Sequence record: PZ168289.1
Length of the DNA: 39,017 nt
From: a phage
Direction: 5' to 3' (one strand)
The translations under genes were made by a program, and so were the position numbers. Of this stretch, positions 7,389 to 38,782 are shown piece by piece. The notes below the pieces were generated by a model. It did no database searches. It had not been told where the DNA came from and worked only from the letters and a program-made list of their open reading frames with translations. The stretch's first letter is position 1. Every line of letters begins with the position of its first letter.

Positions 7389-7848
7389 TGTACACCACCA
7401 ATTCTACGACCACTAGATTCAGGTGCTGGGTGAAGCGCTGTGCGTCCGTGGTGTGCATCTGGAGACGCTTATGGTTGAAGACGTGTGAGTTGCTAATCTT
7501 CACGTAAACTTCTTCAGGCTTTCCGTGGACGATGAACGTCTGGCCTACACCAATCTTGTCGATGGTCAGGACTTCACGCTTCACAGTCACAGGCGGTACG
7601 CTCGAAGCTGGCAGGACTTGCGGTTTATCCTCTACGATTTCCTCAAGATGTTCTTTTAAAACCCACGCCCCCCACATACCGTCAGGCTGAGTGTCATAAC
7701 CTGCTGCTCCGTGTTTGTAGGCTCCACGCTCAGTGGATTCCACCAGAACATGTCCAGACGATGGTACAGGGTCTTTCGCACATTTCGTAACGATAGTACC
7801 TTTAGGCCACCCGTAGCCACTAACCTTAAGTCTATATTTCTGAGTCAT
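7378..7848 (-). CDS. orphan hypothetical protein inserted between endonuclease I and lysozyme
   Basis: 156-aa ORF; AGGAG 7 nt upstream of ATG 7848; start overlaps gp3 stop (TGATG); 3' end overlaps lysozyme start by 11 nt; no recognisable motif; T7 has no gene here. Confidence 0.6.
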   Translation of the reverse strand: MTQKYRLKVSGYGWPKGTIVTKCAKDPVPSSGHVLVESTERGAYKHGAAGYDTQPDGMWGAWVLKEHLEEIVEDKPQVLPASSVPPVTVKREVLTIDKIGVGQTFIVHGKPEEVYVKISNSHVFNHKRLQMHTTDAQRFTQHLNLVVVELVVYNGK

Positions 7849-8300
7849 CACTTAACTCCTTTCTTCTTGGGGATGAGGATACCTGAAGGCAGACGTACAG
7901 TCGCCTCTCGCAGCCACTCAACCGGGATGAACTTATCGGCATACTTATAGCCGTTCTTTTCGCACCATGCGCCATACGTGGTCGGAGACCCCTTGTATAA
8001 CTTGGAGCGGGAACTTGAGAACACGAACCGAATGTCTAACTCAGGGTGCTGTTCTTTAATCAATAGGTGCTTCTTACGGTCTTCCACTGCGAAGATTCCT
8101 TTGGTCTCCACAATTATTCCATTGGGCAATACAAAGTCTGGACAATAACTGTGTAGAGACTGAGGGATTGTGTATGCTATTTTATACATCTCGTATTCAG
8201 CCTTTACGCCATTCTTCTCCAGCCACTCTTGGTTCTTTGCCTCAAGACCAGACCTATATATTCCTACCGAATGTCCCCTGCTTATACTACGTGTAGCCAT
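7848..8300 (-). CDS. endonuclease I (T7 gp3-like Holliday junction resolvase)
   Basis: Strong similarity to T7 gp3 (YRSGLE, PDF.LPNGI.VETKG, DRKKHLLI.EQHPELDIR.VFSSS..KLYKGSPT.YG). Confidence 0.96.
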   Translation of the reverse strand: MATRSISRGHSVGIYRSGLEAKNQEWLEKNGVKAEYEMYKIAYTIPQSLHSYCPDFVLPNGIIVETKGIFAVEDRKKHLLIKEQHPELDIRFVFSSSRSKLYKGSPTTYGAWCEKNGYKYADKFIPVEWLREATVRLPSGILIPKKKGVK

Positions 8301-8731
8301 GTTTCTCTCCTTAGTATCTTACCTATTGTTGGCTGAGACACTCCGTAGATTGTGGCGAGCTGTCGCTGGGTAAGGCCAGAAGACCTAATTTCCTTGACTT
8401 TAGTATCAGTAAGTTTAGACATACCGCACTTCTCTCCCGGAACATGAGGAGGGTTTACACCGCGCCCCTTGTTACGCATGTCCTGAAGGTTATCCCTTTG
8501 GGTTCCTACAGTTAGATGCTCAGGGTTACAACATAGCGGAGTGTCACAAGTGTGTAGTAGAACACCATTTGGTTCTTCACCTGTAATCAGCTCGTAGGCT
8601 ACACGATGGGCAAGCATGGTTTTCCCATTATGCCTAATCTGACTGTAGCCATTGTTGTTAACGCAGCCAGTGAAAAGCCAGCAGCTACCCGAAACCCTGA
8701 GTCGCTGCTTGAGGCTTTCTATTGTAGCCAT
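8282..8731 (-). CDS. HNH homing endonuclease (copy 1 of 3)
   Basis: Cys-rich HNH motif (CW.FTGC, LAHRVAYEL, HTCD.PLCCNPEHL) plus C-terminal HTH-like tail; start overlaps SSB stop, end overlaps gp3 start. Confidence 0.85.
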   Translation of the reverse strand: MATIESLKQRLRVSGSCWLFTGCVNNNGYSQIRHNGKTMLAHRVAYELITGEEPNGVLLHTCDTPLCCNPEHLTVGTQRDNLQDMRNKGRGVNPPHVPGEKCGMSKLTDTKVKEIRSSGLTQRQLATIYGVSQPTIGKILRRETWLHVV

Positions 8732-16082: not shown

Positions 16083-16240
16083 TGTGGTTTATCCTCAGCG
16101 TGTAGACTATCGTGAATACGTTTGCGGCCCTCATAGACCGCTTTCAGGTGACGCATGGTCGCATCGTGGTTTAACTGCCCGGTCTTGACCATAATCCGGG
16201 CGTTGGTGACGTGGTGCTGGCAGAGACCATAAGTTACCAT
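16079..16240 (-). CDS. hypothetical early micro-protein (53 aa)
   Basis: Hand-translated MVTYGLCQHHVTNARIMVKTGQLNHDATMRHLKAVYEGRKRIHDSLHAEDKPQ; ATG overlaps Ocr stop (TGATG); GAGGA upstream. Confidence 0.4.
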   Translation of the reverse strand: MVTYGLCQHHVTNARIMVKTGQLNHDATMRHLKAVYEGRKRIHDSLHAEDKPQ

Positions 16241-16767
16241 CAATCGCAATCCTCAGCAGCCGCAGGGTCGAACACTACGTTATCGTTGATGTCTTCGACC
16301 TGCATGTGAAAACCTTCCTCATAGAGTTCTTTTGCACATGCAGTAGCCTCGTAAAGTGATACAGCTCCCTCAATTATCTCGCCTGTTCTAGTGTCAACTA
16401 CCCAATATTCAGCCTTTTCGTCTTCCTCTTCAGCCTTTTCGTCTGCCTCTTCATCCTCAAACCAGACCACATCCGAGCTATTAGACACGTCGTTATAAAG
16501 CGCCTCATAGATGCGAGCTTGCAGTATACGCGTTACATCCTTGGTATCAGGCATCAGCCCAGAATCTTCGAACTCGTGGTCTATACCATCAGCAGCCATT
16601 ACCGTGAAAATCTCGTGGTAATAGTGCGGAACATTACCGTCTACGACCTCATGCAGCGCATCGCTGTAGTCGTCTCCTTCAGCTATTTCGTCGTACTGAA
16701 TACGCTCGTTAAATGCCTTAACGGTTGCAGCCAGCAGGTCATAGTATGCGTTAGCGTTACGTTCCAT
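16240..16767 (-). CDS. Ocr-like DNA-mimic anti-restriction protein (T7 gp0.3 homolog) with C-terminal extension
   Basis: Residues ~24-95 align with T7 Ocr (YD.I...DD..DA.H...D..VPHYY..IF.VMA..GID.EFEDSGLMPDTKDV.RILQARIYE); very acidic; 175 aa vs 117 in T7. Confidence 0.85.
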   Translation of the reverse strand: MERNANAYYDLLAATVKAFNERIQYDEIAEGDDYSDALHEVVDGNVPHYYHEIFTVMAADGIDHEFEDSGLMPDTKDVTRILQARIYEALYNDVSNSSDVVWFEDEEADEKAEEEDEKAEYWVVDTRTGEIIEGAVSLYEATACAKELYEEGFHMQVEDINDNVVFDPAAAEDCD

Positions 16768-18549: not shown

Positions 18550-20316
18550 CTAGTGGAACGTAACGTATGACCCTAGTCCTAGCTCGTCGTCCGTATCGTG
18601 AGTTACCCTGACCCCATTGTCCCAGAACTCGGTGTGGATGGACTCGAAGCCTTTCCGTGGGTTCTCCATCTGTTCCTCCAGCCACTCCTCAGTGACTTCG
18701 CGTTCGCCTTTGTTGGCATCCTTAGCCATAGACTCAACGAAGAACTGTACACCGATAGCCAGAGCATCAAGTCGGTCATCGTGTGCCAAGGCTCCACGCT
18801 CACGAGAGATACGGGTCATCTGGTAGAAGAGAGAGTAGATAGGGTTACGAACGCCATCCTTATCAGAGGCTGTCTGGTAGTCTTGGACGATAGCAGCAGC
18901 GTTAACGATAAGTCGGTGAGACCCCATGATAGGCTCCAGAACGTCACAGATGCGGAGTTCTTTCTGACCCTTACTCTTCACTTCAGTTACAGCCGCAGGA
19001 TGGATACGGGCCGCTACAGGCTTGAATAGCTCAAGGTACATACCATCACCGAAGTTACCCTCAATGACGTATTCGTTGACCTTCCACTTACGACCAATCT
19101 TAGCCAAGGCTTCCAACGTAGAGTCTTCATAACCGCCACGCATACCACCCACTTCCATAGCGAAGATGTAGCCGTTGAGCTGATACAGTACCGCATAACC
19201 AGTTTCATCCTTACCACGACCACTAGGGTCAATGACCAGAATCTTCTGGGTGTACGAACTGAAGGCAGAACCTACAGTCTGATACGTGTGGTACGAGTCA
19301 CCCATGAGTCCAACGTTAGGAACGTCCTCACGCTTGTTCTGAGGGTTCGGCAACCATTGGTAGACCATTGGACTGGACGCTGGGTCCAAGTCGGCTACGA
19401 TAAGGTCACGGAGCTTCAGAGGGTACTTCTCTGCATCACTCAGGTTAGGGTTAAGCATGAACTGTAGCGCGAAGCCAGCTTTACCGTAAGATAGCTCACG
19501 TTCCTTAAGGTCAGTATCATCGAAGCGTACTTCATCAGTCGGACGCCAGTAGAAGGACTCAGGGTCCTCTTCCAGCTCTGCCTGAAGCATAGGAGCCAGA
19601 CGGTCGCCGTAAGACTGCCAGTCCTTCCTGTCGCGTGGATACCGAGCTGGCCAGATAGTAGTGGTATACCCACGACCTTCCAACTCACGATACAGGGTCA
19701 TCTCGTTCTGAGGAGTGCCCAGATAGATGATTGCACCTCCCGGCTTCAGGATAGCGTCGAACTCTTTCACAAGCTCTGACAGTCGGTCTCGCGCAGCCTG
19801 AGTCGCAGAGTTGTTAGGAACCTCCACGTCATCGGCAATCAGGATGTCAGCACGACTACCAGTCAACTGACCAGTGATGCCAACGGACTTAACCGAAGGT
19901 GAGTGGTCTGGCTTGGCTGGCCCAACGTCGAAGCTGATAACTGCATCTCGCTGTCCCTGCTTAGGTTTGAGTTCCTGAAGCTGAGGCATGAGGTCGATGA
20001 TTCGCTTGATGAATATGGAGTTAGCATCGGCTCGTTCCTTTGAGGCCGACACAATCATGAACTTCAAGTCTGGGTTGTTCCATAGTTTCCAGACCACGAA
20101 ACCACAGGTCAGAAACGACTTGCCAATACCACGGAACGCCTGAAGGATGAAGCGGCGATTATCCCCAGCAGCAAGCTTCTTACACATATCTATCTGGCAG
20201 CGGGTTGGAACCGGAAGGCTAAGAGCTTTCCAGAGAACGAAGATGAAGAACACGAAGTCGTCCCTCATCCTTTGGGTCATTTCTGCCTGTCTTTCCACAG
20301 GTGTTTTCTTAGACAT
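18550..20316 (-). CDS. terminase large subunit (T7 gp19-like)
   Basis: Collinear with T7 gp19 ([81 protein letters not shown]); GGAGGG RBS. Confidence 0.97.
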
Positions 20317-23455: not shown

Positions 23456-23478
23456 GTTTCCTATAGTGATAGTTTAGT
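23456..23478 (-). promoter_or_regulatory. phage RNAP promoter (tail fiber upstream)
   Basis: Perfect core at 23460-23477; contains the gp16 TAA stop. Confidence 0.75.
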
Positions 23479-26400
23479 TCTTGATGTGGATGCCTTGCTC
23501 CTCAAACGTTCCAAGCAACAGCTTCTGGGTAATTGGGTCGTTCGGAACCAGCTCACGGAACGTATTATACATCCCGGTCATGTAGTCACGCTCGTTGACG
23601 CGAGTATCAGCCTTGAGGTAGCCAGCCAAGTTGTAAGCCGAAGCGCCAACGTTAGCAGCATATCCGAAAGCTGGAACCTGCTCCAAGAAGTTACCAACAA
23701 CATTCATAACAGGGTCACTTGTAGCCGCACCATACGCGATGGCACGTTCAGGCTGCTCTGTAGGCGAACGAGGTAGGATAGACGAACGGAGCATCTTAGT
23801 GTCCTCATACCCAGCGATGCCACCCAGAATGTTAGCTACCCCAAGTGGGCCACCCAGATGTGAACTACGGGACAGAGCCGCATATCCAATCATCGTCGGG
23901 TCCAGAGCTTGCTTGAGGTACTCACGGTCTCTGCCATCCTGCATAGCGTAAGCCTTGACGTGAGCCTGAGCCATGTAGTAGATACCAGCCAGACCCATAG
24001 ACATCACGGTAGATAGAGCAGCATCCATCGCTCGGTTGTTCTTCGTGGCGTTATAGAAGGTTCGCATGGTTCGCCCGTTGATGGACTTGATGACGAAGTT
24101 CTTAAACTGAAGGACAGTCTTAGCTAGAGGGCCATAAGCCTTGGCATCCATGTTTGACAGCTTGTGGGGCCGGAGTAACGTTTCGTCAGCGATGGTGTCA
24201 CCCATACGCCACAGGTCCATAGCCCTTGGGTCCTGACTGAACGCCTTCTTATCCTTGATGGTATACTTCCCGTCTGGACCACGAGTCACTGACTCACGGA
24301 TTAATGACTTAATGCCCTTCCACTGCTCGTCAGATATACCAGCGGTCTTCAGCCAGCGGTCATCGAACTTACGCTTACTACCAGTCAGGCTATGCTCCAC
24401 GATGTCAGACAGGAAGCCTTGACGTCCAGCATCTAACAGGTAGTTGGTCGTACCGTTGAGAACTTTAGTGAACGGAGAGCGTACTGCGAGTTCACCAGTG
24501 TAATACTTGGCAGTCCCCAGAGCTGTAGCTGTACCACGACCGAGGTCACTGTAAGACCGCAGACGGTCAATGACATCCTGTTTAGATGGGCGTATTGAGT
24601 CATCAAGTTCCTTACCAAAGATAACATTGTGCAGGTCCTTAATCTCTGAGGCCCCAACCTTCTTGTTACGGAAGGCTAGGTCACGGAAAATTGGGACTCC
24701 ATGCAGCATTGCACGAACGTTACCACGGGCCAGCATACCACCAATCTCCGTTAAGTTCTGAACACCCATATAGGCATTCTTAGCGAAGAACGATAGGTCT
24801 GTCATTGTGCGCATCACGGTAGCGAAGGCTGCATCGTCAGCACCATCACGTCGAGCACGACCAGTTAGAATCTTCAGGGTGTCACGCAAGGTAGATACTT
24901 CACCTTTCAACTTTCCGTCATCACCAGCCTTGTTCATCATGGTCTCAACCAAGTCCTTCATTTCTTTCGTTGTCTTGCCTGCACCAGCCATAATGGCAAT
25001 GTCACCATTAACTCGACGGTTGTATGCCGGGACAATCTTGTCCATGTCCCACTCCCGCAGGTTGTTGACACTGAAGGTTTGACCATTAGGAAGAACTATT
25101 GACATATCGCTGTCGAACAGGTTACGAGCCTCAAGGAAGCTGTTGTTCTCCAGACCAACCAGACCATTGATGTTCTCTTCCATTACGGATGAACGCTCGA
25201 ACTGCTCGGTGTGAGAGATACCATAAGCCTTATCGTTGGCGTACTTATCGACCGCAGCCGCAAGTCCTTCTGGAGTCAACGTAGGGTCAGCCTCTAAGAG
25301 TGCCTCGTCCACACGTTTCTTGACCTCAGGTCGAGACGCATAGCTGGTCAACCATGACTTCTTGATGGCCTCCTGCAACGCCTCTGGACTCCCAAGCTCC
25401 TTGATGTACAGCTCCTTCATCTGTTTGCTATACACATGAGGGACGTAGGTTCCCTTGAAGCGGCTACCCGGAAAGATAGACTGAGCGTCTGGCCGACCAA
25501 ACATAGCTGGGTTCTCCATCATCTCACGCTTGGCGTCAAACTGGTTCTTCAGTAGGTCATAGACTTTCAGTTCTCCCGGAGTCAGTTCAGCCTTCAGGTT
25601 TCCGCTACCATCTTCGATAGCCATAGACACACGCTGGTAGATGTCCTGACGGAATGCACCAGAGTCTCGCCAGAATGCTGTCTGGAAGTACGGGTCCTTT
25701 AGTGCCTCAGTAACCGCATCGTCGATGTCGTTGTATAACCGATGGTCCACAGCACGAAGTCTCTCGAATACGTCTGACGCAGTGGTCCCGATTTTACCTG
25801 AGGACCCTGATTGCATACCAGTCGGTGAACGTACTAAGTCAGCAGCTACTCCACGAATCTCAGGGTTCTCAGACCGAAGCAGCTTCAGACCAATCTCGGT
25901 AAGTCCACCAAGGTTCACACCAGCAGCGGCACGTTCAGGCTCAATCACTTCGTCAAAGACTTGACGTGTCTTAGGGTTCAGAGGGTTCTCACCAATCAGG
26001 ATTGAACCATCCTCCAGTCGTACACTACCCGGCTCATTCGGAACGTCAGCGAATTTAACGCCTTGATGACTAAAGGTCTGCTCACCTTCCTGAATAGGGA
26101 GACGAGACAGGTCCTGACCATCAACGTTACGAGCTGTCTCACGAGCTTCCAGACGTGTAGCTGGGCCAGCGAACTCATTAGTGTTGCGACCTAAGGCTCT
26201 GCCTAATCCATCAGCGATAGCAGTCATGCCCCCACCAAAGAGAGCACCGCCAAGGATAGCTTCAGCCACATGAGCATCACCACCAGCCACTGAGGTACGA
26301 GCCATCTCGGACACACCAGCCAGTGCTCCAGATTGAGCAGCCACGGTGAACATCTTGTTGACCAGCTTACCACCTTTACCAACCTGTCCAGCGATAGGAA

Positions 26401-27361
26401 CGTATGTCAGAGGGTCTACACCAGCACCAATCACACCAGCAGCTAACTGAGCACCAGTCCCAGCCTTGGCCTTCTCTTGGTCCAACTTCTGGTTCTCAAG
26501 CGCCAAGTTGATAAGCTCGGTCAGGTTCTGAGGTGAGCCACCAGTAATGACTCCGTAATACTGGGGCAGAACCCCAGCGTTACGAATCTGGTCCAGCTCC
26601 TCACGAGCCCACTTATGGTTGTTCCAGCGGGTCGGGTTGAACACATCGCCAATGACATCAAGTGAGTCCTCAGTCTGACCAGCGCGGATAGCCACGCCGA
26701 CCATAGAGTTCTTCACTTCGGCTTCTGTAGCCGCACCAAAACCGAACCACGTAGAGCGACCCTCTCGTTCCTGCATGGTCTCGCCAGTAGACTTATAGAA
26801 CATCTCACCGAACGATTCGTTGGGAGCTTCAGGTGCTTGACCCTCAATGTTAAGACCAGCAGCGGTCGGAAGGTTCTCACCCAGAGCTACTTTAGGTTTA
26901 GCCTTGAGTCCTTCCGTGAGTGCGTCAAATACGTTAGCGCTTACTGGTGGAGTCTTTGGGCTAATGCCATTGAGTGCTCGTGCGACTCCCTTCTGATAGA
27001 CTTCAGGGTCGTACCGGGAGCCTGTCTCATGGAAGCTGATAGCTTGAGCCAGAGAAGACAGGGTGTCAGGGTCCGATAGGTCGAGGCTCTGGGTAGCTGG
27101 AATACCAGTTGCAGCCACCACTGAGTCAATATAAGACTTAGTATCGTTCTCGTTAGGAGGTGCCCATCGGTTGATAATCTTCTCGATGGAGTCATAACCT
27201 TGGCGACCGTAGGACAGCAGGTTTTTACCTAAAGCTCGGACGCCAGACTCTGGGCTATCAAATATTACAAACTCCCCATCATCACCAATAGCTCCTTCCC
27301 ATTGGTCCTTAGACTTACGTATATTTCCAGGGTTCGAATTTCTTATGCCACGTGTTGCCAT
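23474..27361 (-). CDS. internal virion protein D with N-terminal lytic transglycosylase domain (T7 gp16-like)
   Basis: 1295 aa; long collinear similarity to T7 gp16 (PTRWN.H.W, GAGVDPL.YVP, MRLEARETARN, VRSPTGMQSG, GTYVPHVY, AYGISH..QF, NNSFLEARNLFDSD); AAGGAG RBS. Confidence 0.96.
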   Translation of the reverse strand: MATRGIRNSNPGNIRKSKDQWEGAIGDDGEFVIFDSPESGVRALGKNLLSYGRQGYDSIEKIINRWAPPNENDTKSYIDSVVAATGIPATQSLDLSDPDTLSSLAQAISFHETGSRYDPEVYQKGVARALNGISPKTPPVSANVFDALTEGLKAKPKVALGENLPTAAGLNIEGQAPEAPNESFGEMFYKSTGETMQEREGRSTWFGFGAATEAEVKNSMVGVAIRAGQTEDSLDVIGDVFNPTRWNNHKWAREELDQIRNAGVLPQYYGVITGGSPQNLTELINLALENQKLDQEKAKAGTGAQLAAGVIGAGVDPLTYVPIAGQVGKGGKLVNKMFTVAAQSGALAGVSEMARTSVAGGDAHVAEAILGGALFGGGMTAIADGLGRALGRNTNEFAGPATRLEARETARNVDGQDLSRLPIQEGEQTFSHQGVKFADVPNEPGSVRLEDGSILIGENPLNPKTRQVFDEVIEPERAAAGVNLGGLTEIGLKLLRSENPEIRGVAADLVRSPTGMQSGSSGKIGTTASDVFERLRAVDHRLYNDIDDAVTEALKDPYFQTAFWRDSGAFRQDIYQRVSMAIEDGSGNLKAELTPGELKVYDLLKNQFDAKREMMENPAMFGRPDAQSIFPGSRFKGTYVPHVYSKQMKELYIKELGSPEALQEAIKKSWLTSYASRPEVKKRVDEALLEADPTLTPEGLAAAVDKYANDKAYGISHTEQFERSSVMEENINGLVGLENNSFLEARNLFDSDMSIVLPNGQTFSVNNLREWDMDKIVPAYNRRVNGDIAIMAGAGKTTKEMKDLVETMMNKAGDDGKLKGEVSTLRDTLKILTGRARRDGADDAAFATVMRTMTDLSFFAKNAYMGVQNLTEIGGMLARGNVRAMLHGVPIFRDLAFRNKKVGASEIKDLHNVIFGKELDDSIRPSKQDVIDRLRSYSDLGRGTATALGTAKYYTGELAVRSPFTKVLNGTTNYLLDAGRQGFLSDIVEHSLTGSKRKFDDRWLKTAGISDEQWKGIKSLIRESVTRGPDGKYTIKDKKAFSQDPRAMDLWRMGDTIADETLLRPHKLSNMDAKAYGPLAKTVLQFKNFVIKSINGRTMRTFYNATKNNRAMDAALSTVMSMGLAGIYYMAQAHVKAYAMQDGRDREYLKQALDPTMIGYAALSRSSHLGGPLGVANILGGIAGYEDTKMLRSSILPRSPTEQPERAIAYGAATSDPVMNVVGNFLEQVPAFGYAANVGASAYNLAGYLKADTRVNERDYMTGMYNTFRELVPNDPITQKLLLGTFEEQGIHIKN

Positions 27362-27792
27362 GTCTTTCTCCTTAAGATATTTCTAATAGAAACCGTACTC
27401 ACTCCATAGGAGCTAGCTAGGAATGAAACCTTTAGGTCGCTAGACCGTATGTTCTTCACATCAGTCTCTGTCAATTTGGACACTCCTATTGAGCTTCCAG
27501 ACGCTTGACGACCTCTTTCCACCTTGTCTCTAATGTTGTCAGCCTGAGTTCCGGCCTCAAGATGGTCAGGGTTTATGCAGGACGGATTGTCGCACTTATG
27601 GCGTACAACATACCCTTCAGGTATAGGACCACTGGCAAGCTCATAAGCTAGTCGATGTGCTCTATACTTAACTCTGTTAATCATTATCTGACCGTAACCG
27701 TCAGAATCTACGGTCCCAGTGAATCGGATACAGCCAGAGCTTTCAGCTACTGACAATTCTGCCAGTCTCTCACTGGCTGTCCCGTTCTTCAT
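27343..27792 (-). CDS. HNH homing endonuclease (copy 2 of 3)
   Basis: HNH motif (C..FTG, AHRLAYEL, HKCDNPSCINPDHL) plus HTH-like tail; start set to ATG 27792 with AAGGAG RBS (track 27810); 3' end overlaps the first codons of gp16. Confidence 0.85.
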   Translation of the reverse strand: MKNGTASERLAELSVAESSGCIRFTGTVDSDGYGQIMINRVKYRAHRLAYELASGPIPEGYVVRHKCDNPSCINPDHLEAGTQADNIRDKVERGRQASGSSIGVSKLTETDVKNIRSSDLKVSFLASSYGVSTVSIRNILRRKTWQHVA

Positions 27793-27796
27793 TATG

Positions 27797-30079
27797 TTAC
27801 TCCTTACCAATTAGTACGTTTGCGATACCCTCCAGTGAGACGTCATTATACATCCCACCGCGCTTCTCGATGTCGGCCTCTCGGTCAGCTCGACGTTTAT
27901 CACCAGCAGCTTTAGTCCCGACGATACGCGCTCGCTTGTTAGCGTCACGTTCTGCCTGAGCGTATGCGGCATCCTGTGCCTTCTGCTGTTGTTCGCGGTA
28001 GAGTTTACCTACAAGTTCTTTATCGTAGCGAATACGAATAGTCCCTGTAGCGTCTTGGAGGAAGATAGAGCCGTTCTGTTCAACAACGGACAACTGAGAG
28101 TTCACTACCCAAGGGTTGGCCTTAATGAGCTGCTTACGGGCGGTGTCGATAATGTCTCGACCTACCTGCCACGACTCAGGGTTATCCCCGACCATGAGCT
28201 GGTGCTTGGACACCATGCCGATGGACTTACCGTCAGAGCCTTCAGACTGGAACGTTACGGTATTTTCATTCAGCCATCGTTGAGTCTGCTGAGTTGCAGC
28301 GTCAGCGTTACCTGTACGATAGTACCATGAGTCCCAGACCTTACGAGCACTTGAGTCCAGAGACGTAGGAAGACGCGAAAGGTCCTTATTCCGAGAGTCG
28401 TTCTTCAACTCCTGCCACGCCTTGTCTGACTCCATGCGCATCTCACGGCTTTGACTTGCAGCTTGCTTATCAGCTTCAATCATCGTCTGAGGGTCCAGAC
28501 CCATCTTGTCCATCTGGTCGAACGTAGAGAACAACTGAGCTTGGTCAGGATACAGAGCAGCGAAACTTGAAGGGTCCTGAGTGTAGGCACGACGCAGTGA
28601 CTCGAAGCGTTTCATCTTGTCTGGGTCGTACTGTCCACGGATGACCGCAGCTTGCCACTCACCAGCAGCGTCCTGAGTCAGCGTCTGGAAGGCATTACGG
28701 AACGGACCGTTGTTAGTGTCAGCTCTTAACAATGCCACCTTCTGAGCGTCTTTAGCGGCCTCAGGGATGTCCATCTGGTCAATCTGCTGTAGCTTGGCAG
28801 ACGCATAGTTGTTCATGTCAGAACGCTTGAACTCGCCTGTAGCATCTGAGACCGGAAGGTCCTCATAGTTGGTGGACACGTTGTCACCAGCCAGCCGCCG
28901 CTGATATACTTGGTCTATGACCAGTTGCTTGTTCTGGGTCTGGATTAACTTAGTGTTCTCCTTAGCCTGTTCAGCGGACTTACGCTTGACCGCTTCCAGT
29001 AAGCTGGCTTCGGCATTAATAAGCATCTGACGCTGAGGCGTTAGTTCTTCACCGGGTTGAAGCAGGTTGTTCTGCTCCTTGAGTTTCTGAATCTGGGCAA
29101 GACCAATGGTTGGGTCGTCCTGAAGAATCGCAGACTGAACGCCTAACGCCAAGTCTTCCTGATACTTAGCAACCAGTTTATACTCAGTACCTTGGGCCTC
29201 AACCATAGCAGCATTGAAGACGTCAGGTCCTACAATCTCTTCGACGGTAGCGTCAACACCGTTAAGTGTGATACGCTCGCCACGGACTTGCTGTAGGAAG
29301 TTTGAGCCTCCTGACTTCTGGATTGCGTCACGGACCGTCTGGGTGATGACCTCTCGTGCTCTCTGGTCCGAAGGTATAGCAGCAGTCGTCAGTCCATCAC
29401 GAAGGTAGGCCATGAAGGTCTTTCCAGACTCAGGCGAACGCATCAGGTCCCCATCGTTAAGGAACGAGTTCATCTCAATACGAGTGTTCAACATTGCTGT
29501 CTCTTCAGACTGCTTGCTGAAATACTTATTGAATGACCCGTATATAGCGATGTTTCTGTCCGTGATGTTATCGTTGAATCCACGCTGGAAGAACTCGTCG
29601 GTAGGGTTAATACCCGCCTCTTCAGCATAGGACTTAGCGGCATCCTGAAGTCGCTGGTGGCGATACTCTTCCATGTCCTGACGTGTTCGGAACTCACCGT
29701 TCTGAATCTTAACGTTAATCTCGTCATCCACCGCAAAGGCAGCGTTACGACCAGTCTTGACTCGAAGTGCTTCCATAGCGTAAGGGTCATCCTGATACAG
29801 CAATGTGCCGTTCTGGATAGCCTCACGTCTCTGCTGAGGTGTCAACTTACGGATAATCTCGTTAGACCGCTCGTCAGCTCTGGTCTTCTCCTCGTCCTTG
29901 AACTGCTTGTACAATCCAGTCCCAGACTCAACGAAGTTGGTTAACGCACGAGCCAGACCGGAGTCACCAGTCGGAGCCTGAACGTTTGCTGCTTGATAGT
30001 TGACGGCGATAGTTTTACCCGGCGCTCTGCCACGACCCATAGTCCGATTAGCAAGAGCTGATTCAATATTACTAGCCAT
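27797..30079 (-). CDS. internal virion protein C (T7 gp15-like)
   Basis: Collinear with T7 gp15 (DERSNEIIRKLTPQQRREA.QNGTLLYQDDPYAMEALRVKTGRNAA, EEYRH.RLQ, IRYDKEL). Confidence 0.93.
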   Translation of the reverse strand: MASNIESALANRTMGRGRAPGKTIAVNYQAANVQAPTGDSGLARALTNFVESGTGLYKQFKDEEKTRADERSNEIIRKLTPQQRREAIQNGTLLYQDDPYAMEALRVKTGRNAAFAVDDEINVKIQNGEFRTRQDMEEYRHQRLQDAAKSYAEEAGINPTDEFFQRGFNDNITDRNIAIYGSFNKYFSKQSEETAMLNTRIEMNSFLNDGDLMRSPESGKTFMAYLRDGLTTAAIPSDQRAREVITQTVRDAIQKSGGSNFLQQVRGERITLNGVDATVEEIVGPDVFNAAMVEAQGTEYKLVAKYQEDLALGVQSAILQDDPTIGLAQIQKLKEQNNLLQPGEELTPQRQMLINAEASLLEAVKRKSAEQAKENTKLIQTQNKQLVIDQVYQRRLAGDNVSTNYEDLPVSDATGEFKRSDMNNYASAKLQQIDQMDIPEAAKDAQKVALLRADTNNGPFRNAFQTLTQDAAGEWQAAVIRGQYDPDKMKRFESLRRAYTQDPSSFAALYPDQAQLFSTFDQMDKMGLDPQTMIEADKQAASQSREMRMESDKAWQELKNDSRNKDLSRLPTSLDSSARKVWDSWYYRTGNADAATQQTQRWLNENTVTFQSEGSDGKSIGMVSKHQLMVGDNPESWQVGRDIIDTARKQLIKANPWVVNSQLSVVEQNGSIFLQDATGTIRIRYDKELVGKLYREQQQKAQDAAYAQAERDANKRARIVGTKAAGDKRRADREADIEKRGGMYNDVSLEGIANVLIGKE

Positions 30080-36815: not shown

Positions 36816-38379
36816 CTTGAGCCATGTCCTCACCAGCTCCCTGACCTACAGCAGCGCCCATGTTAGCACCAGCAGCAGACGCACCGTTGACCACAGCTCC
36901 TTGAGTGGATTGTTCAGCCATACGTTGCAGCTTCTCGTCCTGAGTCAGCAGTAGACCAGCGGTGTCAATGCCTAAGGCATTCAGCAGTCGCAGCTTCAGG
37001 GTCGGCAAGTTAATGTCTGGGTCCTGTTGCAGAGGCTGTAGCCCGGTCATCATGTTGACTGCCTGAGTCAACTTCTCTAAGTCTTGACCACGACCTAACG
37101 CTTCCAGACCAGTGGAGACCGTAGGCTCTACCGCTTCTTTCGGAAGGTCAGGAATCATGCCAGCAGACTGAAGTTGGTTCATCAGCACACGGACGATAGG
37201 TAACTGAAGCTCTTGTGACTGTACTGAGTACACGCCACCTAAGGTCGCCTCCAGTTCGCCAGCAACATAACGAATCTCTTCAGCAGTGACTCGCTCGGCA
37301 TTACGCTGAACAGCACTATTAAGAAGGAAGGCCCAGCCTAAACGTTGCTCGATAGCATCAGCCACCGACTTGGCAATCGTAAAGTCCTGACCTTTCGTCA
37401 GTTGAAGGAAGTTGATGTCCTCAACGCGACCAGCCACGAACTCACCTGTAGCCGCCTTGTTCAGACGACGAGGTTGCGTGATACCGTTCGGGTTAACGAG
37501 GCCCACCACCTTGGAGGCTACCTTAGCCATTTTGGTGATAGCTTCTGTAATCGTCTCCAGCGAGTTCAGGTCTCCCAGATACTCCTCGCAGTAAGAACGA
37601 CCATAGTCTTCACCATCCAGTCGAACCATTCGCACCGGGATGTACGGACAGGCAGTCAGTGGGTAAGAACCCTCGGTCCCTGCTACCTCAATTCCTTCCA
37701 CTTCCTCGTATCGCAGATACTCGTCGTCCTGACGGTAGATGTGCGTATATACTTCCAGCTCGGTGTCAGGCTCATAGTCGTCTGCGTTGAGTTGTGACTT
37801 CACGTCTTCCGGTAGAGCACTAAACGCTACCTTGTCGAGAGTCACAATCTGCAAGATATTACCGAAAGCATCACGTTGAACAACGTAGGACACTAAGCGG
37901 TACATTCGCATAGGACTGTAAGTACCCTGTTCAGGCTCTGGAATGTATAGCAGACAGTTACCGGAGACGATAAGCTGCTTCAGAGCTTCGAACAATGGCA
38001 CGCGGAAACTGTTAGTCTCCATGTAGGCCATCAACACACGCTCGACCATAGCAAGCCCTTCGTCAACACGAGCAGCAGCCTCTGAGTCCTGACTCAAGGT
38101 CTTGGCCTCATATTCGGAGACTGTCAGTCGCATCCACGGTGACTGAGGGAATAACGCCAACATCAGCTTTGCAGCCAAGTTGTTCAAACAGCGAGCACCT
38201 ACAGCTTGCCACGGCGTCACGTATTCCGTAGAGGAGTTGTCTGACTCCTTGGGAAATAGCGAGGGGATGGTCACGGCAGCGCAGTTCTGTGCGCGGGTCT
38301 CGTAAGGCTGTCGTCCGTTCTTCAATCTATCATAAACTGACTTCGCGCCTTCAGCAGCAAATCCTTCACGTTCAGCCAT
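36811..38379 (-). CDS. portal (head-to-tail connector) protein (T7 gp8-like)
   Basis: Collinear with T7 gp8 (GAKSVY.RLKN.R.PYETRAQNCA, IPSLFPK.SDN.ST.Y.TPWQAVGAR.LNNLA.KLMLALFP, RLDGE.YGRSY.EEYLGDL, RVTAEEIRYVA.ELE.TLGGVYS). Confidence 0.97.
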   Translation of the reverse strand: MAEREGFAAEGAKSVYDRLKNGRQPYETRAQNCAAVTIPSLFPKESDNSSTEYVTPWQAVGARCLNNLAAKLMLALFPQSPWMRLTVSEYEAKTLSQDSEAAARVDEGLAMVERVLMAYMETNSFRVPLFEALKQLIVSGNCLLYIPEPEQGTYSPMRMYRLVSYVVQRDAFGNILQIVTLDKVAFSALPEDVKSQLNADDYEPDTELEVYTHIYRQDDEYLRYEEVEGIEVAGTEGSYPLTACPYIPVRMVRLDGEDYGRSYCEEYLGDLNSLETITEAITKMAKVASKVVGLVNPNGITQPRRLNKAATGEFVAGRVEDINFLQLTKGQDFTIAKSVADAIEQRLGWAFLLNSAVQRNAERVTAEEIRYVAGELEATLGGVYSVQSQELQLPIVRVLMNQLQSAGMIPDLPKEAVEPTVSTGLEALGRGQDLEKLTQAVNMMTGLQPLQQDPDINLPTLKLRLLNALGIDTAGLLLTQDEKLQRMAEQSTQGAVVNGASAAGANMGAAVGQGAGEDMAQA

Positions 38380-38782
38380 CTACGTGCCTCCATGTTTTAC
38401 CTGTTAATACGTCAGACAGCGTTCTCCTAGCTACTCCCGGATATGCAGAGGTAAGCTCTGTCGCTGTTAGCCCTGACTTTCGTATGGACTTAACATCTTC
38501 GGCTGTTAGCTTTGAGTTGTAATGGCTGTCACTATGTGGAGCGTTCTTTCTACCTTTGGAAACACAGTCTACCATGTTATCGCTATAAGTACCAACGCTC
38601 AGGTGTTCGGGATTGACGCATAGTCTATTGTCGCAGGCATGCATCACCACTAGACCTTCTGGTATGGGACCTTTGTGTTTTAGGTAGGACACTACATGCG
38701 CTCCACGCAGCTTGCCTGCATACCACTTCAGGCCATATCCAACATTATTTACGCAGCCCTTATGCAGTATGCAGTCTGTCAT
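38372..38782 (-). CDS. HNH homing endonuclease (copy 3 of 3)
   Basis: HNH motif (GCVNN.GYG, HACDNRLCVNPEHL) plus HTH-like tail; start overlaps gp7.3 stop, 3' end overlaps portal start by 8 nt. Confidence 0.85.
   Translation of the reverse strand: MTDCILHKGCVNNVGYGLKWYAGKLRGAHVVSYLKHKGPIPEGLVVMHACDNRLCVNPEHLSVGTYSDNMVDCVSKGRKNAPHSDSHYNSKLTAEDVKSIRKSGLTATELTSAYPGVARRTLSDVLTGKTWRHVDG

What the first reader, a model, noticed from the sequence alone, without database searches (positions are those of the whole stretch)
27343..27792. HNH homing endonuclease copy 2, between internal virion proteins gp15 and gp16
Same HNH family as copies 1 and 3. Its 3' end overlaps the first codons of the gp16 gene, and it has its own strong RBS in the 5-bp gap after gp15. 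Insertion inside the late structural operon is notable.
Basis: partly seen in the sequence, partly recalled or inferred. Interest (0 to 1): 0.45.

Follow-up and report, generated by a model that had tools for sequence, protein, structure and literature searches.

The report
Free-standing HNH homing endonuclease gene
This is an ordinary selfish mobile gene, an HNH homing endonuclease wedged between two virion-protein genes of a T7-like coliphage; about nine in ten close relatives lack it, and public phage records already annotate it at this site.

Summary
On the minus strand, 27343..27792 is an intact 149-aa ORF (Pfam HNH_3, E=1.5e-16). It lies between gp15 (27797..30079) and gp16 (23474..27361) of a Kayfunavirus (K1F-like, T7 relatives) and overlaps gp16 by 19 nt.

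Two details need correcting. The gap after gp15 is 4 nt, not 5. The AAGGAG ribosome-binding site lies in gp15's last two sense codons, not in the gap.

The ORF is a 431-bp insertion. Of 213 related phage records, 17 carry this allele group, and gp15 and gp16 are directly adjacent in most others. The insert takes over the site and ATG that start gp16 in empty genomes. Its own 3' end (AAGGAGAAAGACATG) gives gp16 a new site and start codon.

The model (pLDDT 92) best matches I-HmuI, and T7 gp7.7 is 50% identical. The gene is under purifying selection (dN/dS 0.16) but far more diverged than its flanks.

Polymorphisms linked to the insert occur only in gp16 nt 1-150. One insert-free phage, phiYIO1-1, carries that haplotype. 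I infer a T4 MobE-like element whose target lies in the 5' end of gp16.

CR44b already annotates this gene as "7.7C, predicted homing endonuclease". It is already known and of low interest.

The parts
27343..27792 (-). HNH endonuclease ORF, 149 aa. It has an N-terminal His-Me/HNH nuclease domain (residues ~20-92) and a C-terminal three-helix helix-turn-helix domain (residues ~109-140).
   Evidence: ORF list and translation. Pfam HNH_3 at E=1.5e-16. AlphaFold model with pLDDT 91.9. Best Foldseek match is I-HmuI, 1u3e. All 14 orthologues examined are intact at 149 aa, and dN/dS is 0.16.
27362..27792 (-). The 431-bp insertion relative to relatives with an empty site. The end points are ambiguous by the shared ATG.
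   Evidence: Alignment with PR_Kaz2018, which is empty, and with ZH4 and CR44b, which are occupied. The junction table covers 14 occupied and 20 empty genomes. G+C falls to 0.45 here against ~0.52 in the flanks.
27800..27805 (-). Ribosome-binding site AAGGAG. It forms the last two sense codons of gp15, 7 nt before the HNH ATG. In empty genomes it serves gp16, and here the insert has captured it.
   Evidence: Read directly from the sequence. The same GGTAAGGAGTAA(N2-5)ATG is present at every empty and occupied junction.
27359..27373 (-). Replacement translation start for gp16, supplied by the insert: AAGGAG-AAAGAC-ATG. It is encoded within HNH codons (L)RRKTW.
   Evidence: Three-frame translation of the junction. 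It is conserved in all 14 occupied genomes, with 92% mean pairwise identity over HNH nt 421-450.
27343..27361 (-). The 19-nt overlap between the HNH 3' end (…W Q H V A stop) and gp16 codons 1-7. Frame sharing explains the four fully diagnostic substitutions at gp16 nt 9, 18, 19 and 21.
   Evidence: Nt 9=A is needed for the conserved His codon, nt 17-19 form the HNH stop codon, and nt 21 follows from the CGC to AGR arginine codon switch.
27212..27361 (-). gp16 nt 1-150, the tract whose polymorphisms are linked to the presence of the HNH gene. In this genome the divergent patch ends at about nt 108 (27254). This is the inferred location of the endonuclease target or cleavage site.
   Evidence: Association between polymorphisms and the insert is 0.31 falling to 0.15-0.24 over nt 1-150, then 0.04-0.11. 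It is 0.03-0.08 across the last 420 nt of gp15. The window differs from the empty genome L085 at 33 positions in nt 1-108 and at none in nt 109-150, and is 97.2% identical over nt 151-1000. All haplotypes are listed.
27760..27792 (-). The first 33 nt of the HNH ORF. They are essentially invariant in all 14 alleles, although the rest of the gene is saturated at synonymous sites. The stretch contains the inverted repeat GCCAGT-N5-ACTGGC (27761-27777). Its function is unexplained.
   Evidence: Mean pairwise identity is 0.995 over nt 1-30 and 0.62-0.80 in the gene body. The RNA fold is not significant, z = -1.09.
27797..30079 (-). gp15 (internal virion protein C), the upstream flank.
   Evidence: Annotation of relatives. 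A precomputed Pfam Phage_T7_Gp15 hit on the homologue.
23474..27361 (-). gp16 (internal virion protein D, with a peptidoglycan hydrolase domain), the downstream flank and probable target gene.
   Evidence: Annotation of relatives.
8282..8731 (-). Paralogue 'copy 1', at the position of T7 gene 2.8, between gp2.5 (single-stranded DNA-binding protein) and gp3 (endonuclease I). It has the same 431-bp cassette design and the same 19-nt overlap.
   Evidence: 49.6% identity. Pfam hits for this ORF and its neighbours. Junction sequences. Present in 4 of 221 relatives.
38372..38782 (-). Paralogue 'copy 3', at the position of T7 gene 7.7, immediately upstream of gp8 (portal protein), with an 8-nt overlap.
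   Evidence: 44% identity. Pfam hits. CR44b annotates the gene at this position as 7.7. Present in 8 of 209 relatives.

Best explanation
This is a free-standing, promoterless homing endonuclease gene of the HNH (His-Me finger) class, inserted precisely at the gp15/gp16 junction of a Kayfunavirus.

Shown directly:
- It is a 431-bp insertion that most close relatives lack.
- It uses the ribosome-binding site and ATG that start gp16 in empty genomes.
- Its own conserved C-terminal codons (RRKTW = AGG AGA AAG ACA TGG) supply a new ribosome-binding site and ATG for gp16. The essential downstream gene is therefore still translated from the same late transcript.
- The protein is intact, under purifying selection, and built like I-HmuI: an N-terminal HNH nuclease joined to a C-terminal helix-turn-helix DNA-binding domain.

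Inferred:
- During mixed infection the enzyme nicks or cuts gp16 DNA of phages that lack the insert, somewhere in the first ~150 nt of gp16.
- Recombinational repair from the insert-bearing genome then copies the gene, together with the adjacent stretch of gp16, into the cut genome.
- The carrier genome is immune because that stretch of gp16 is recoded, mostly at synonymous positions.
- This is how T4 MobE works on nrdB.

My confidence that it is an HNH homing-endonuclease gene is about 0.9. My confidence that its target lies in gp16 nt 1-150 is about 0.6.
For: - **Family and fold.** Pfam HNH_3 at E=1.5e-16. PHROG HNH families match at E down to 4e-35. Columns H65, C67, D68, C72, H77 and N86 are invariant and H46 is nearly invariant across 44 homologues. 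The AlphaFold model has pLDDT 91.9, and its best solved match is I-HmuI (1u3e, probability 1.0, 141 aligned columns), followed by I-PpoI. T7 gp7.7 is 50% identical over residues 21-148. A 2025 preprint treats T7 genes 2.8, 3.8 and 7.7 as homing endonucleases (10.1101/2025.09.07.674715).
- **Presence/absence at a fixed site.** 17 of 213 records hold the full region. In an even sample of 60 records, about 45 have a 765-771 bp empty junction. All 14 occupied junctions examined have the same boundaries and the same 19-nt overlap.
- **Start-site swap.** It is read directly from the sequence.
- **No separate transcription signals.** No sigma-70-like promoter lies on the coding strand, and the one match on the other strand is at chance level. 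There is no terminator. CR44b places the phage promoter upstream of gene 13.
- **Functional protein.** Median dN/dS is 0.16, similar to the gp15 and gp16 flanks (0.10 and 0.14).
- **Separate history from the flanks.** HNH alleles are 57-80% identical at nucleotide level to all but ZH4 (98%), with dS of 0.7-2.5. In the same genome pairs, the flanks of 10 of 13 are 92-98% identical. G+C dips over the insert.
- **One-sided linkage.** Polymorphisms are linked to the insert only in gp16 nt 1-150 and not in gp15.
- **A natural recombinant.** phiYIO1-1 has no insert but carries this window's gp16 haplotype from nt 15 to ~119, with the crossover between nt 9 and 15. A repair tract that began inside gp16 and stopped short of the insert would give this product.
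- **Decaying copies.** Frameshifted alleles at the same site occur in metagenome assemblies: one with a 1-nt deletion found on at least 24 contigs, another with a 2-nt deletion. This fits the known cycle of invasion, decay and loss.
- **Precedent.** T4 MobE is a promoterless free-standing HNH gene between nrdA and nrdB that nicks nt 122-126 of the downstream gene (PMC2790892).
Against: - No cleavage, nicking or biased inheritance has been measured for this protein or for any orthologue at this site. The papers I found only annotate genes of this kind.
- The four perfectly diagnostic substitutions (gp16 nt 9, 18, 19, 21) are fully explained by the overlapping HNH reading frame. They cannot count as evidence of target immunity. 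Only the linked differences at nt 22-150 bear on that claim.
- Those linked differences could reflect plain linkage to an insert that arrived from a diverged donor, without any cleavage.
- The Foldseek match to I-HmuI has a modest TM-score (0.45) and an rmsd of 10 Å, as expected for two domains joined by a flexible linker. A sequence search of solved structures found nothing.
Confidence: 0.85

Rival explanations
1. The gene is retained because it benefits the phage, and it may no longer home. It could damage co-infecting competitor phages, or blunt a bacterial defence that senses DNA breaks, through its DNA-binding activity. This reading does not exclude homing.
For: Purifying selection (dN/dS 0.16) acts on alleles that are very old relative to their flanks. 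A 2025 preprint reports that an HNH endonuclease of phage BASEL_24 and T7 gp3.8 attenuate the GAPS4 defence system even when catalytically dead. It also reports that a T7 mutant lacking 2.8, 3.8 and 7.7 grows less well on cells carrying GAPS4. That preprint cites a study showing that a homing endonuclease mediates competition between co-infecting phages.
Against: About nine in ten close relatives do without the gene. Frameshifted copies circulate, so any benefit is conditional at best. The one-sided linkage tract and the phiYIO1-1 recombinant point to DNA-level action on gp16 of related phages. No experiment has been done on this protein.
Confidence: 0.2
2. It is a passive accessory gene. It was acquired once by illegitimate recombination and later lost by deletion in most lineages, with no endonuclease-driven mobility.
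For: Presence/absence alone cannot separate gain from loss. The overlap of the HNH C-terminal codons with the native gp16 start (ATGGC.AC.CGTGG) offers microhomology for an accidental insertion.
Against: Repeated loss would have to restore the exact GGTAAGGAGTAA-N(3-5)-ATGGCGACT junction in each lineage. Carriers and non-carriers are intermixed for gp15 markers lying only 12-20 nt from the insert. HNH alleles are far more diverged than the backbones that carry them. The insert-linked haplotype ends at the same point (~nt 150) in every allele group.
Confidence: 0.08
3. It is an inactive relic. The ORF is intact, but the enzyme no longer recognises any site present in current phage populations.
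For: Frameshifted alleles at the site show that decay does occur. Nothing here shows activity.
Against: This allele and 13 others are full length with all conserved catalytic and zinc-ligand positions. dN/dS is 0.16. The presumed susceptible sequence is invariant over gp16 nt 1-23 in 19 of 20 empty genomes, so targets are plentiful.
Confidence: 0.12
4. It is an HNH protein that assists the terminase in DNA packaging, as in some cos-type siphoviruses.
For: Only the shared HNH motif. One Kayfunavirus paper raised this idea for a different HNH gene that lies next to the terminase gene (PMC8861465).
Against: The gene lies between gp15 and gp16, about 7 kb from the terminase large-subunit gene (18550..20316; ORF list). 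Most close relatives lack it and still exist as complete phage genome records. It belongs to the HNH_3 / I-HmuI-like group and carries a sequence-reading helix-turn-helix domain.
Confidence: 0.02

Closest known systems
CR44b gene 7.7C ('predicted homing endonuclease') and its orthologues in Kayfunavirus records (ZH4, EFA-1, EPr2, PH1061, HC12, U8 and others)
   Same: It is the same gene at the same site, with the same 149-aa length and the same 19-nt overlap with gp16. ZH4 is 98% identical at protein level and CR44b about 82%.
   Different: Nothing of substance; this is another allele. Several records call it only 'hypothetical protein' or leave it unannotated (ZH4, HC12, U8, SD6). None has been tested experimentally.
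T7 gp7.7 and gp2.8 (HNH_3-type endonuclease genes of T7)
   Same: It belongs to the same protein family: 50% identity to gp7.7 over residues 21-148. This window also has paralogues at the T7 2.8 and 7.7 positions.
   Different: This copy sits at a third site, between gp15 and gp16, which is not occupied in T7. I state that from my own knowledge of the T7 map; the T7 hits fall only at the 7.7 and other early or middle positions.
T4 MobE (free-standing HNH homing endonuclease between nrdA and nrdB)
   Same: MobE is free-standing, promoterless and expressed from upstream transcription. It is inserted just upstream of the gene it attacks, nicks nt 122-126 of the downstream gene, and co-converts flanking sequence (PMC2790892). 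Here the insert-linked tract covers nt 1-150 of the downstream gene.
   Different: It is not a close sequence relative. MobE's activity was mapped in vivo, whereas here the target is only inferred. MobE carries an internal terminator, and none was found here.
I-HmuI (HNH homing endonuclease of Bacillus phage SPO1, PDB 1u3e)
   Same: It is the best structural match. It has the same domain order, an N-terminal HNH nuclease followed by a C-terminal helix-turn-helix domain. I-HmuI is a nicking enzyme that mainly reads sequence downstream of its insertion site (my own knowledge), which fits the one-sided linkage seen here.
   Different: I-HmuI is encoded inside a group I intron, whereas this gene is free-standing. 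Sequence identity is only 18% and the TM-score is 0.45.

Membership tests
HNH / His-Me finger nucleases (Pfam HNH_3, PF13392) | A sequence match above the curated threshold, with the conserved His, Asn and zinc-ligand positions retained | tested here: met
   60.2 bits against a cut-off of 24.8. H65, C67, D68, C72, H77 and N86 are invariant, and H46, N69 and N74 nearly invariant, in 44 homologues.
HNH / His-Me finger nucleases (Pfam HNH_3, PF13392) | The beta-beta-alpha metal-finger fold | tested here: met
   The model has pLDDT 91.9 and contains strands 34-38 and 41-44 followed by helix 45-54. The top Foldseek matches are I-HmuI, I-PpoI and SMAD MH1 domains. I-HmuI and I-PpoI are homing endonucleases; that all three share the His-Me finger fold is my own knowledge.
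Free-standing phage homing endonuclease genes | The gene lies between host genes, not inside an intron or intein | tested here: met
   The insert lies between the gp15 stop and the gp16 start. Both flanking ORFs are complete, and gp16 keeps its full N-terminus.
Free-standing phage homing endonuclease genes | Presence/absence polymorphism at one fixed site among closely related genomes | tested here: met
   17 of 213 records are occupied by this allele group. A few more appear to hold a diverged allele at the same site. In an even sample of 60 records, about 45 are empty. 14 occupied and 20 empty junctions were aligned.
Free-standing phage homing endonuclease genes | Flanking polymorphisms inherited with the gene (co-conversion tract or target-site variants that confer immunity) | tested here: met
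   The association is confined to gp16 nt 1-150. The window shows 33 differences in nt 1-108 against a background of ~3%. Differences at nt 1-21 are explained by the frame overlap, so only nt 22-150 count. phiYIO1-1 is a recombinant carrying the haplotype without the gene.
Free-standing phage homing endonuclease genes | Site-specific nicking or cutting of the allele that lacks the gene | not testable with these tools
   This needs purified protein or DNA from infected cells. No published assay was found for this gene.
Free-standing phage homing endonuclease genes | Inheritance above the neutral expectation in mixed infections, dependent on the catalytic residues | not testable with these tools
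   This needs phage crosses.
I-HmuI-like two-domain endonucleases | An N-terminal HNH domain joined to a C-terminal helix-turn-helix DNA-binding domain | tested here: met
   The model has helices at 109-117, 122-129 and 133-140. 141 columns align to 1u3e. The CR44b record predicts a helix-turn-helix at residues 106-127. The paralogue at 8282..8731 matches Pfam HTH_3 and HTH_psq.
I-HmuI-like two-domain endonucleases | Encoded within a self-splicing group I intron | tested here: not met
   The insert lies between genes and interrupts no coding sequence. It therefore resembles I-HmuI in architecture but is not an intron-encoded endonuclease.
Terminase-associated HNH packaging factors | The gene is adjacent to the terminase genes and is required in all members of the phage group | tested here: not met
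   The gene lies between gp15 and gp16, and most close relatives lack it.

The most novel reading that the evidence does not exclude
These T7-group HNH genes may be self-contained 'start-swapping' cassettes. Each captures the ribosome-binding site and ATG of the gene it lands in front of. Each then supplies a replacement site and ATG from its own conserved C-terminal codons (RRxTW), and so rewrites the first codons of the downstream essential gene. For gp16 the changes are mostly synonymous. For gp3, copy 1 changes the N-terminus from MAQWSAK to MATRSIS. The invariant first 33 nt and the conserved last 30 nt would be functional cis elements, between which very old, diverged nuclease cores are exchanged. 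The several insert-linked gp16 haplotypes would record an arms race between nuclease specificity and target sequence in a virion protein gene.
Probability: 0.25. Interest if true: 0.4.

Novelty: already known. Interest (0 to 1): 0.22.

Why it matters
The gene is a routine selfish element, so it matters little on its own. The analysis does give a concrete, cheap experiment. It predicts that the nuclease acts on the first ~150 nt of gp16 in K1F-type phages. It also identifies natural sequences that should be susceptible (K1F, PR_Kaz2018), immune with the gene (this phage, ZH4), and immune without the gene (phiYIO1-1). Kayfunaviruses are common candidates for phage therapy and are often mixed in cocktails. 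Elements of this kind can bias recombination and the outcome of competition between co-infecting relatives. The case also illustrates how an insertion into a tightly packed late operon avoids harming the downstream essential gene.

Tried and rejected
- **Solved-structure sequence search.** A phmmer search of solved structures with the protein found nothing at E<=1. The relation to I-HmuI came only from fold comparison.
- **Conserved C-terminal T-W codons as a family-wide start codon.** I tested whether these codons serve as a portable start for the downstream gene across the family, using 80 IMG/VR relatives. Only 27 of 80 have T-W. The Thr codon is ACA in 15 of those. A long ORF starts at the embedded ATG in only 8. 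The arrangement is specific to some lineages, so I rejected it as a family-wide feature.
- **Fixed differences at gp16 nt 9, 18, 19 and 21 as protective target mutations.** I first read them that way. I rejected this as evidence once three-frame translation showed that the overlapping HNH frame forces all four.
- **Invariant first 33 nt as a regulatory RNA hairpin.** The fold is not better than shuffled sequence (z = -1.09, 29 of 200 shuffles fold as well) and there is no variation to test for covariation. It remains unexplained.
- **Own promoter or terminator.** The scans found none above the shuffle expectation.
- **The longer ORF from TTG at 27810.** I rejected it. The ATG at 27792 is conserved in all alleles, although the gap before it varies from 2 to 5 nt.
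- **The 48-aa ORF on the opposite strand (27505..27651).** I treated it as spurious.
- **Packaging-associated HNH.** Rejected on position and dispensability.
Full report
**1. What is there.**

The window is a complete, circularly permuted genome of a Kayfunavirus (K1F-like, subfamily Studiervirinae). It is presented so that all genes read on the minus strand. The best database match covers 92% of a 24-kb query at 94.7% identity, so it is not identical to any record searched.

On the minus strand, 27343..27792 is an ATG-initiated ORF of 149 aa.
- It matches Pfam HNH_3 at E=1.5e-16 (60 bits against a curated cut-off of 24.8), and weakly matches the zinc-binding loop family of homing endonucleases.
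- It matches ten PHROG families of HNH endonucleases or endonucleases, at E down to 4e-35.
- Upstream lies gp15 (27797..30079, 760 aa) and downstream gp16 (23474..27361, 1295 aa), as annotated in ZH4, PR_Kaz2018 and CR44b.
- The ORF overlaps gp16 by 19 nt (27343-27361).
8282..8731 is 49.6% identical and 38372..38782 is 44% identical, and both match HNH_3.

**2. Corrections to the observation.**

- The gap between the gp15 stop and the ATG is 4 nt (CATA), not 5.
- The ribosome-binding site AAGGAG (27800-27805) is not in the gap. It forms the last two sense codons of gp15, and the coding-strand sequence reads GGT AAG GAG TAA CATA ATG.
- It is not the insert's own site. In relatives without the insert, the same AAGGAG and the same ATG start gp16.

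**3. It is an insertion that most relatives lack.**

I searched 50,697 phage records with a 1,201-bp query across the junction. It matched 213 records, nearly all Kayfunavirus.
- Only 17 records cover the whole query.
- The next-best records match in two pieces spanning 770 bp, so gp15 and gp16 are directly adjacent and 431 bp are missing.
- In an even sample of 60 of the 213 records, 5 carry this allele group and about 45 have the 765-771 bp empty junction. A few (GA2A, Pipis, KM02) match only gp15 and the first part of the insert, and appear to hold a diverged allele at the same site.
- Among 23 IMG/VR junctions, 20 are empty and 3 are occupied.
- G+C falls from ~0.52 to 0.45 over the insert.

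**4. Anatomy of the insertion.**

The empty site reads …GGTAAGGAGTAA-CATA-ATGGCGACTCGTGGTATTCGC…, where the ATG starts gp16. The occupied site reads …GGTAAGGAGTAA-CATA-ATGAAGAAC…[HNH]…TTAAGGAGAAAGACATGGCAACACGTGGCATAAGA….
- The insert takes over the original gp16 start site.
- Its own last codons encode L-R-R-K-T-W-Q-H-V-A-stop. R-R is AGG AGA, a new ribosome-binding site, and T-W is ACA TGG, which contains the new gp16 ATG.
- All 14 occupied genomes examined share this design, the 149-aa length and the 19-nt overlap.
- No promoter above chance and no terminator lie in or next to the insert. CR44b places the phage promoter upstream of gene 13. The gene must therefore be expressed from the late structural transcript.

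**5. Protein.**

Across 44 homologues, H65, C67, D68, C72, H77 and N86 are invariant, and H46, N69 and N74 are nearly so.
- An AlphaFold model built on that alignment is confident: pLDDT 91.9, with 113 of 149 residues at or above 90.
- Its best match among solved structures is the HNH homing endonuclease I-HmuI (1u3e; probability 1.0, 141 aligned columns, TM-score 0.45). I-PpoI and SMAD MH1 domains follow.
- The C-terminal three-helix domain resembles helix-turn-helix DNA binders.
- The closest named protein is T7 gp7.7, at 50% identity over residues 21-148.
- The family is large: 1,820 phage records and 627 clusters at E<=1e-10 in the large protein database.

**6. Evidence for mobility.**

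(a) *Selection and age.* The gene is under purifying selection, with a median dN/dS of 0.16 against 0.10 and 0.14 for the adjacent parts of gp15 and gp16. It is far more diverged than its surroundings. Window versus CHRF_10022 gives 70.5% nucleotide identity in the HNH gene (dS 1.7), but 97.3% in the gp15 3' end and 93.3% in gp16. Window versus L096 gives 57% in the HNH gene against 96% and 88% in the flanks. Old, diverged alleles therefore sit in young, nearly identical backbones.

(b) *One-sided linkage.* Association between flanking polymorphisms and the presence of the insert is at background (0.03-0.08) over the last 420 nt of gp15. Variants only 12-20 nt upstream of the insert occur in both carriers and non-carriers. 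Downstream, the association is 0.31 in gp16 nt 1-30, stays at 0.15-0.25 to nt 150, and is then at background. In this window the patch is sharp. There are 33 differences from the empty genome L085 in gp16 nt 1-108 and none in nt 109-150, and nt 151-1000 are 97.2% identical.

(c) *A natural recombinant.* I built a query joining the window's gp15 end directly to its gp16 start. It found one record, phiYIO1-1, that matches contiguously at 97.2%. That phage has no insert. Its gp16 begins with the empty-type ATGGCGACT and is then identical to the window's insert-linked haplotype from nt 15 to about nt 119. It is a recombinant whose crossover lies within the five shared bases CGTGG. A repair tract that started inside gp16 and stopped just short of the insert would produce exactly this.

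(d) *Decaying copies.* Frameshifted copies exist at the same site in metagenome assemblies: a 1-nt deletion allele on at least 24 contigs, and a 2-nt deletion allele. Both keep the 3' end that gp16 needs for translation.

**7. A caution on the recoding.**

Four positions (gp16 nt 9, 18, 19, 21) separate carriers from non-carriers perfectly. I first took them for protective target mutations. Three-frame translation shows that the overlapping HNH frame forces all four.
- Nt 9 must be A to keep the conserved His codon of the W-x-H-V motif.
- Nt 17-19 are the HNH stop codon.
- Nt 21 follows from the resulting CGC to AGR arginine codon change.

They may also destroy a recognition site, but they do not show that. 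Only the linked differences at nt 22-150, which lie outside the overlap, bear on co-conversion or immunity.

**8. Most likely mechanism.**

The element behaves like T4 MobE. MobE is a promoterless, free-standing HNH gene between nrdA and nrdB. It nicks nt 122-126 of the downstream gene in phages that lack it, and is copied in together with flanking sequence (PMC2790892).

By analogy, I infer three steps:
- The enzyme recognises and nicks or cuts K1F-type gp16 DNA within nt 1-150.
- Repair from the carrier genome converts that stretch and, usually, the insert.
- The carrier's recoded gp16 5' end is immune.

I-HmuI is a nicking enzyme that mainly reads sequence downstream of its insertion site (my own knowledge). 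That fits the one-sided linkage. None of this has been tested experimentally for this gene.

**9. Comparison with what is known, and novelty.**

CR44b (2014 record) annotates the same gene at the same site as "7.7C, predicted homing endonuclease", with a predicted helix-turn-helix. EFA-1, EPr2, PH1061 and CHRF_10022 annotate it as an HNH endonuclease or HNH nuclease.
- A related paper describes another Kayfunavirus HNH gene, upstream of the terminase gene. That gene also overlaps the start of its downstream gene and is polymorphic within a single phage stock (PMC8861465).
- I found no paper on the gp15/gp16 copy itself.
- The feature is therefore already known as an annotated object, and it is an ordinary member of a well-understood class.
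- New here are the start-site swap, the placement of the probable target, and the natural susceptible and immune alleles.

**10. Verdict.**

Novelty: already known. Interest is low, at 0.22.

Noticed in passing
window 8282..8731 (-) and 7848..8300 (-); L126 (K1F): Copy 1 sits between gp2.5 (single-stranded DNA-binding protein) and gp3 (endonuclease I), the position of T7 gene 2.8. It has the same design as copy 2: a 431-bp indel, a 19-nt overlap, and a 3' end CTAAGGAGAGAAACATGGCTACACGTAGTATAAG. Here the cassette changes the downstream protein. gp3 begins MAQWSAKRGHSVG in K1F but MATRSISRGHSVG in this phage. Only 4 of 221 relatives carry it, and PE3-1 is annotated with only a 65-aa HNH fragment at this site.
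   Followed up: partly
window 38372..38782 (-): Copy 3 lies immediately upstream of gp8 (portal protein), the position of T7 gene 7.7, with an 8-nt overlap. It is also a presence/absence polymorphism, with 8 of 209 relatives covering the region.
   Followed up: partly
window 27760..27792 (-); inverted repeat 27761-27766 / 27772-27777: The first 33 nt of the HNH ORF are essentially invariant, including synonymous positions, in 14 alleles that are otherwise only 57-98% identical. The stretch contains GCCAGT-N5-ACTGGC. The RNA fold is not significant (z = -1.09). No explanation so far accounts for this.
   Followed up: partly
L132 (phiYIO1-1, PP079210.1) 986-1110: This phage has no insert but carries the window's insert-linked gp16 haplotype from nt 15 to ~119, behind an empty-type ATGGCGACT start. 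It was the only such match above 90% identity without the insert among 224 records matched by the synthetic junction query.
   Followed up: yes
L129, L130, L131 (metagenome contigs of ~39 kb): These contigs carry frameshifted HNH alleles at the gp15/gp16 site. One has a 1-nt deletion after codon 89 and was found on at least 24 contigs. Another has a 2-nt deletion near codon 119. Both keep the 3' ribosome-binding site and ATG for gp16. Sequencing error cannot be excluded for the single-contig allele.
   Followed up: partly
L096 (GA2A-like) and L097 (Ro45lw-like), HNH at the same junction: A second allele group, only 56-57% identical in protein, occupies the same site. It has the same first ~36 nt, the same length and the same 19-nt overlap. 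Its gp16 5' haplotype is again different from those of the empty genomes.
   Followed up: partly
L004-L083 (IMG/VR relatives): The C-terminal W-x-H-[VI] motif is common across the wider family (present in most of the 80 C-terminal sequences listed). Its use as the start codon of the next gene is not: a long ORF starts at the embedded ATG in only 8 of 80 loci.
   Followed up: yes
window, whole: The window appears to be a whole genome, reverse-complemented and circularly permuted. It starts among the genes downstream of gene 6, and its last gene is the 7.7-like HNH gene. The physical genome ends probably lie near 17-18.5 kb. An ocr-like DNA-mimic gene is at 16240..16767.
   Followed up: no
database records MT350292.1, OR786095.1, PV615262.1: Some records that are Kayfunavirus by taxonomy or by close match to this junction are labelled as Enterococcus, Staphylococcus or Acinetobacter phages. 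MT350292.1 is flagged UNVERIFIED_ORG. These labels probably reflect contamination or mislabelling, not real hosts.
   Followed up: no
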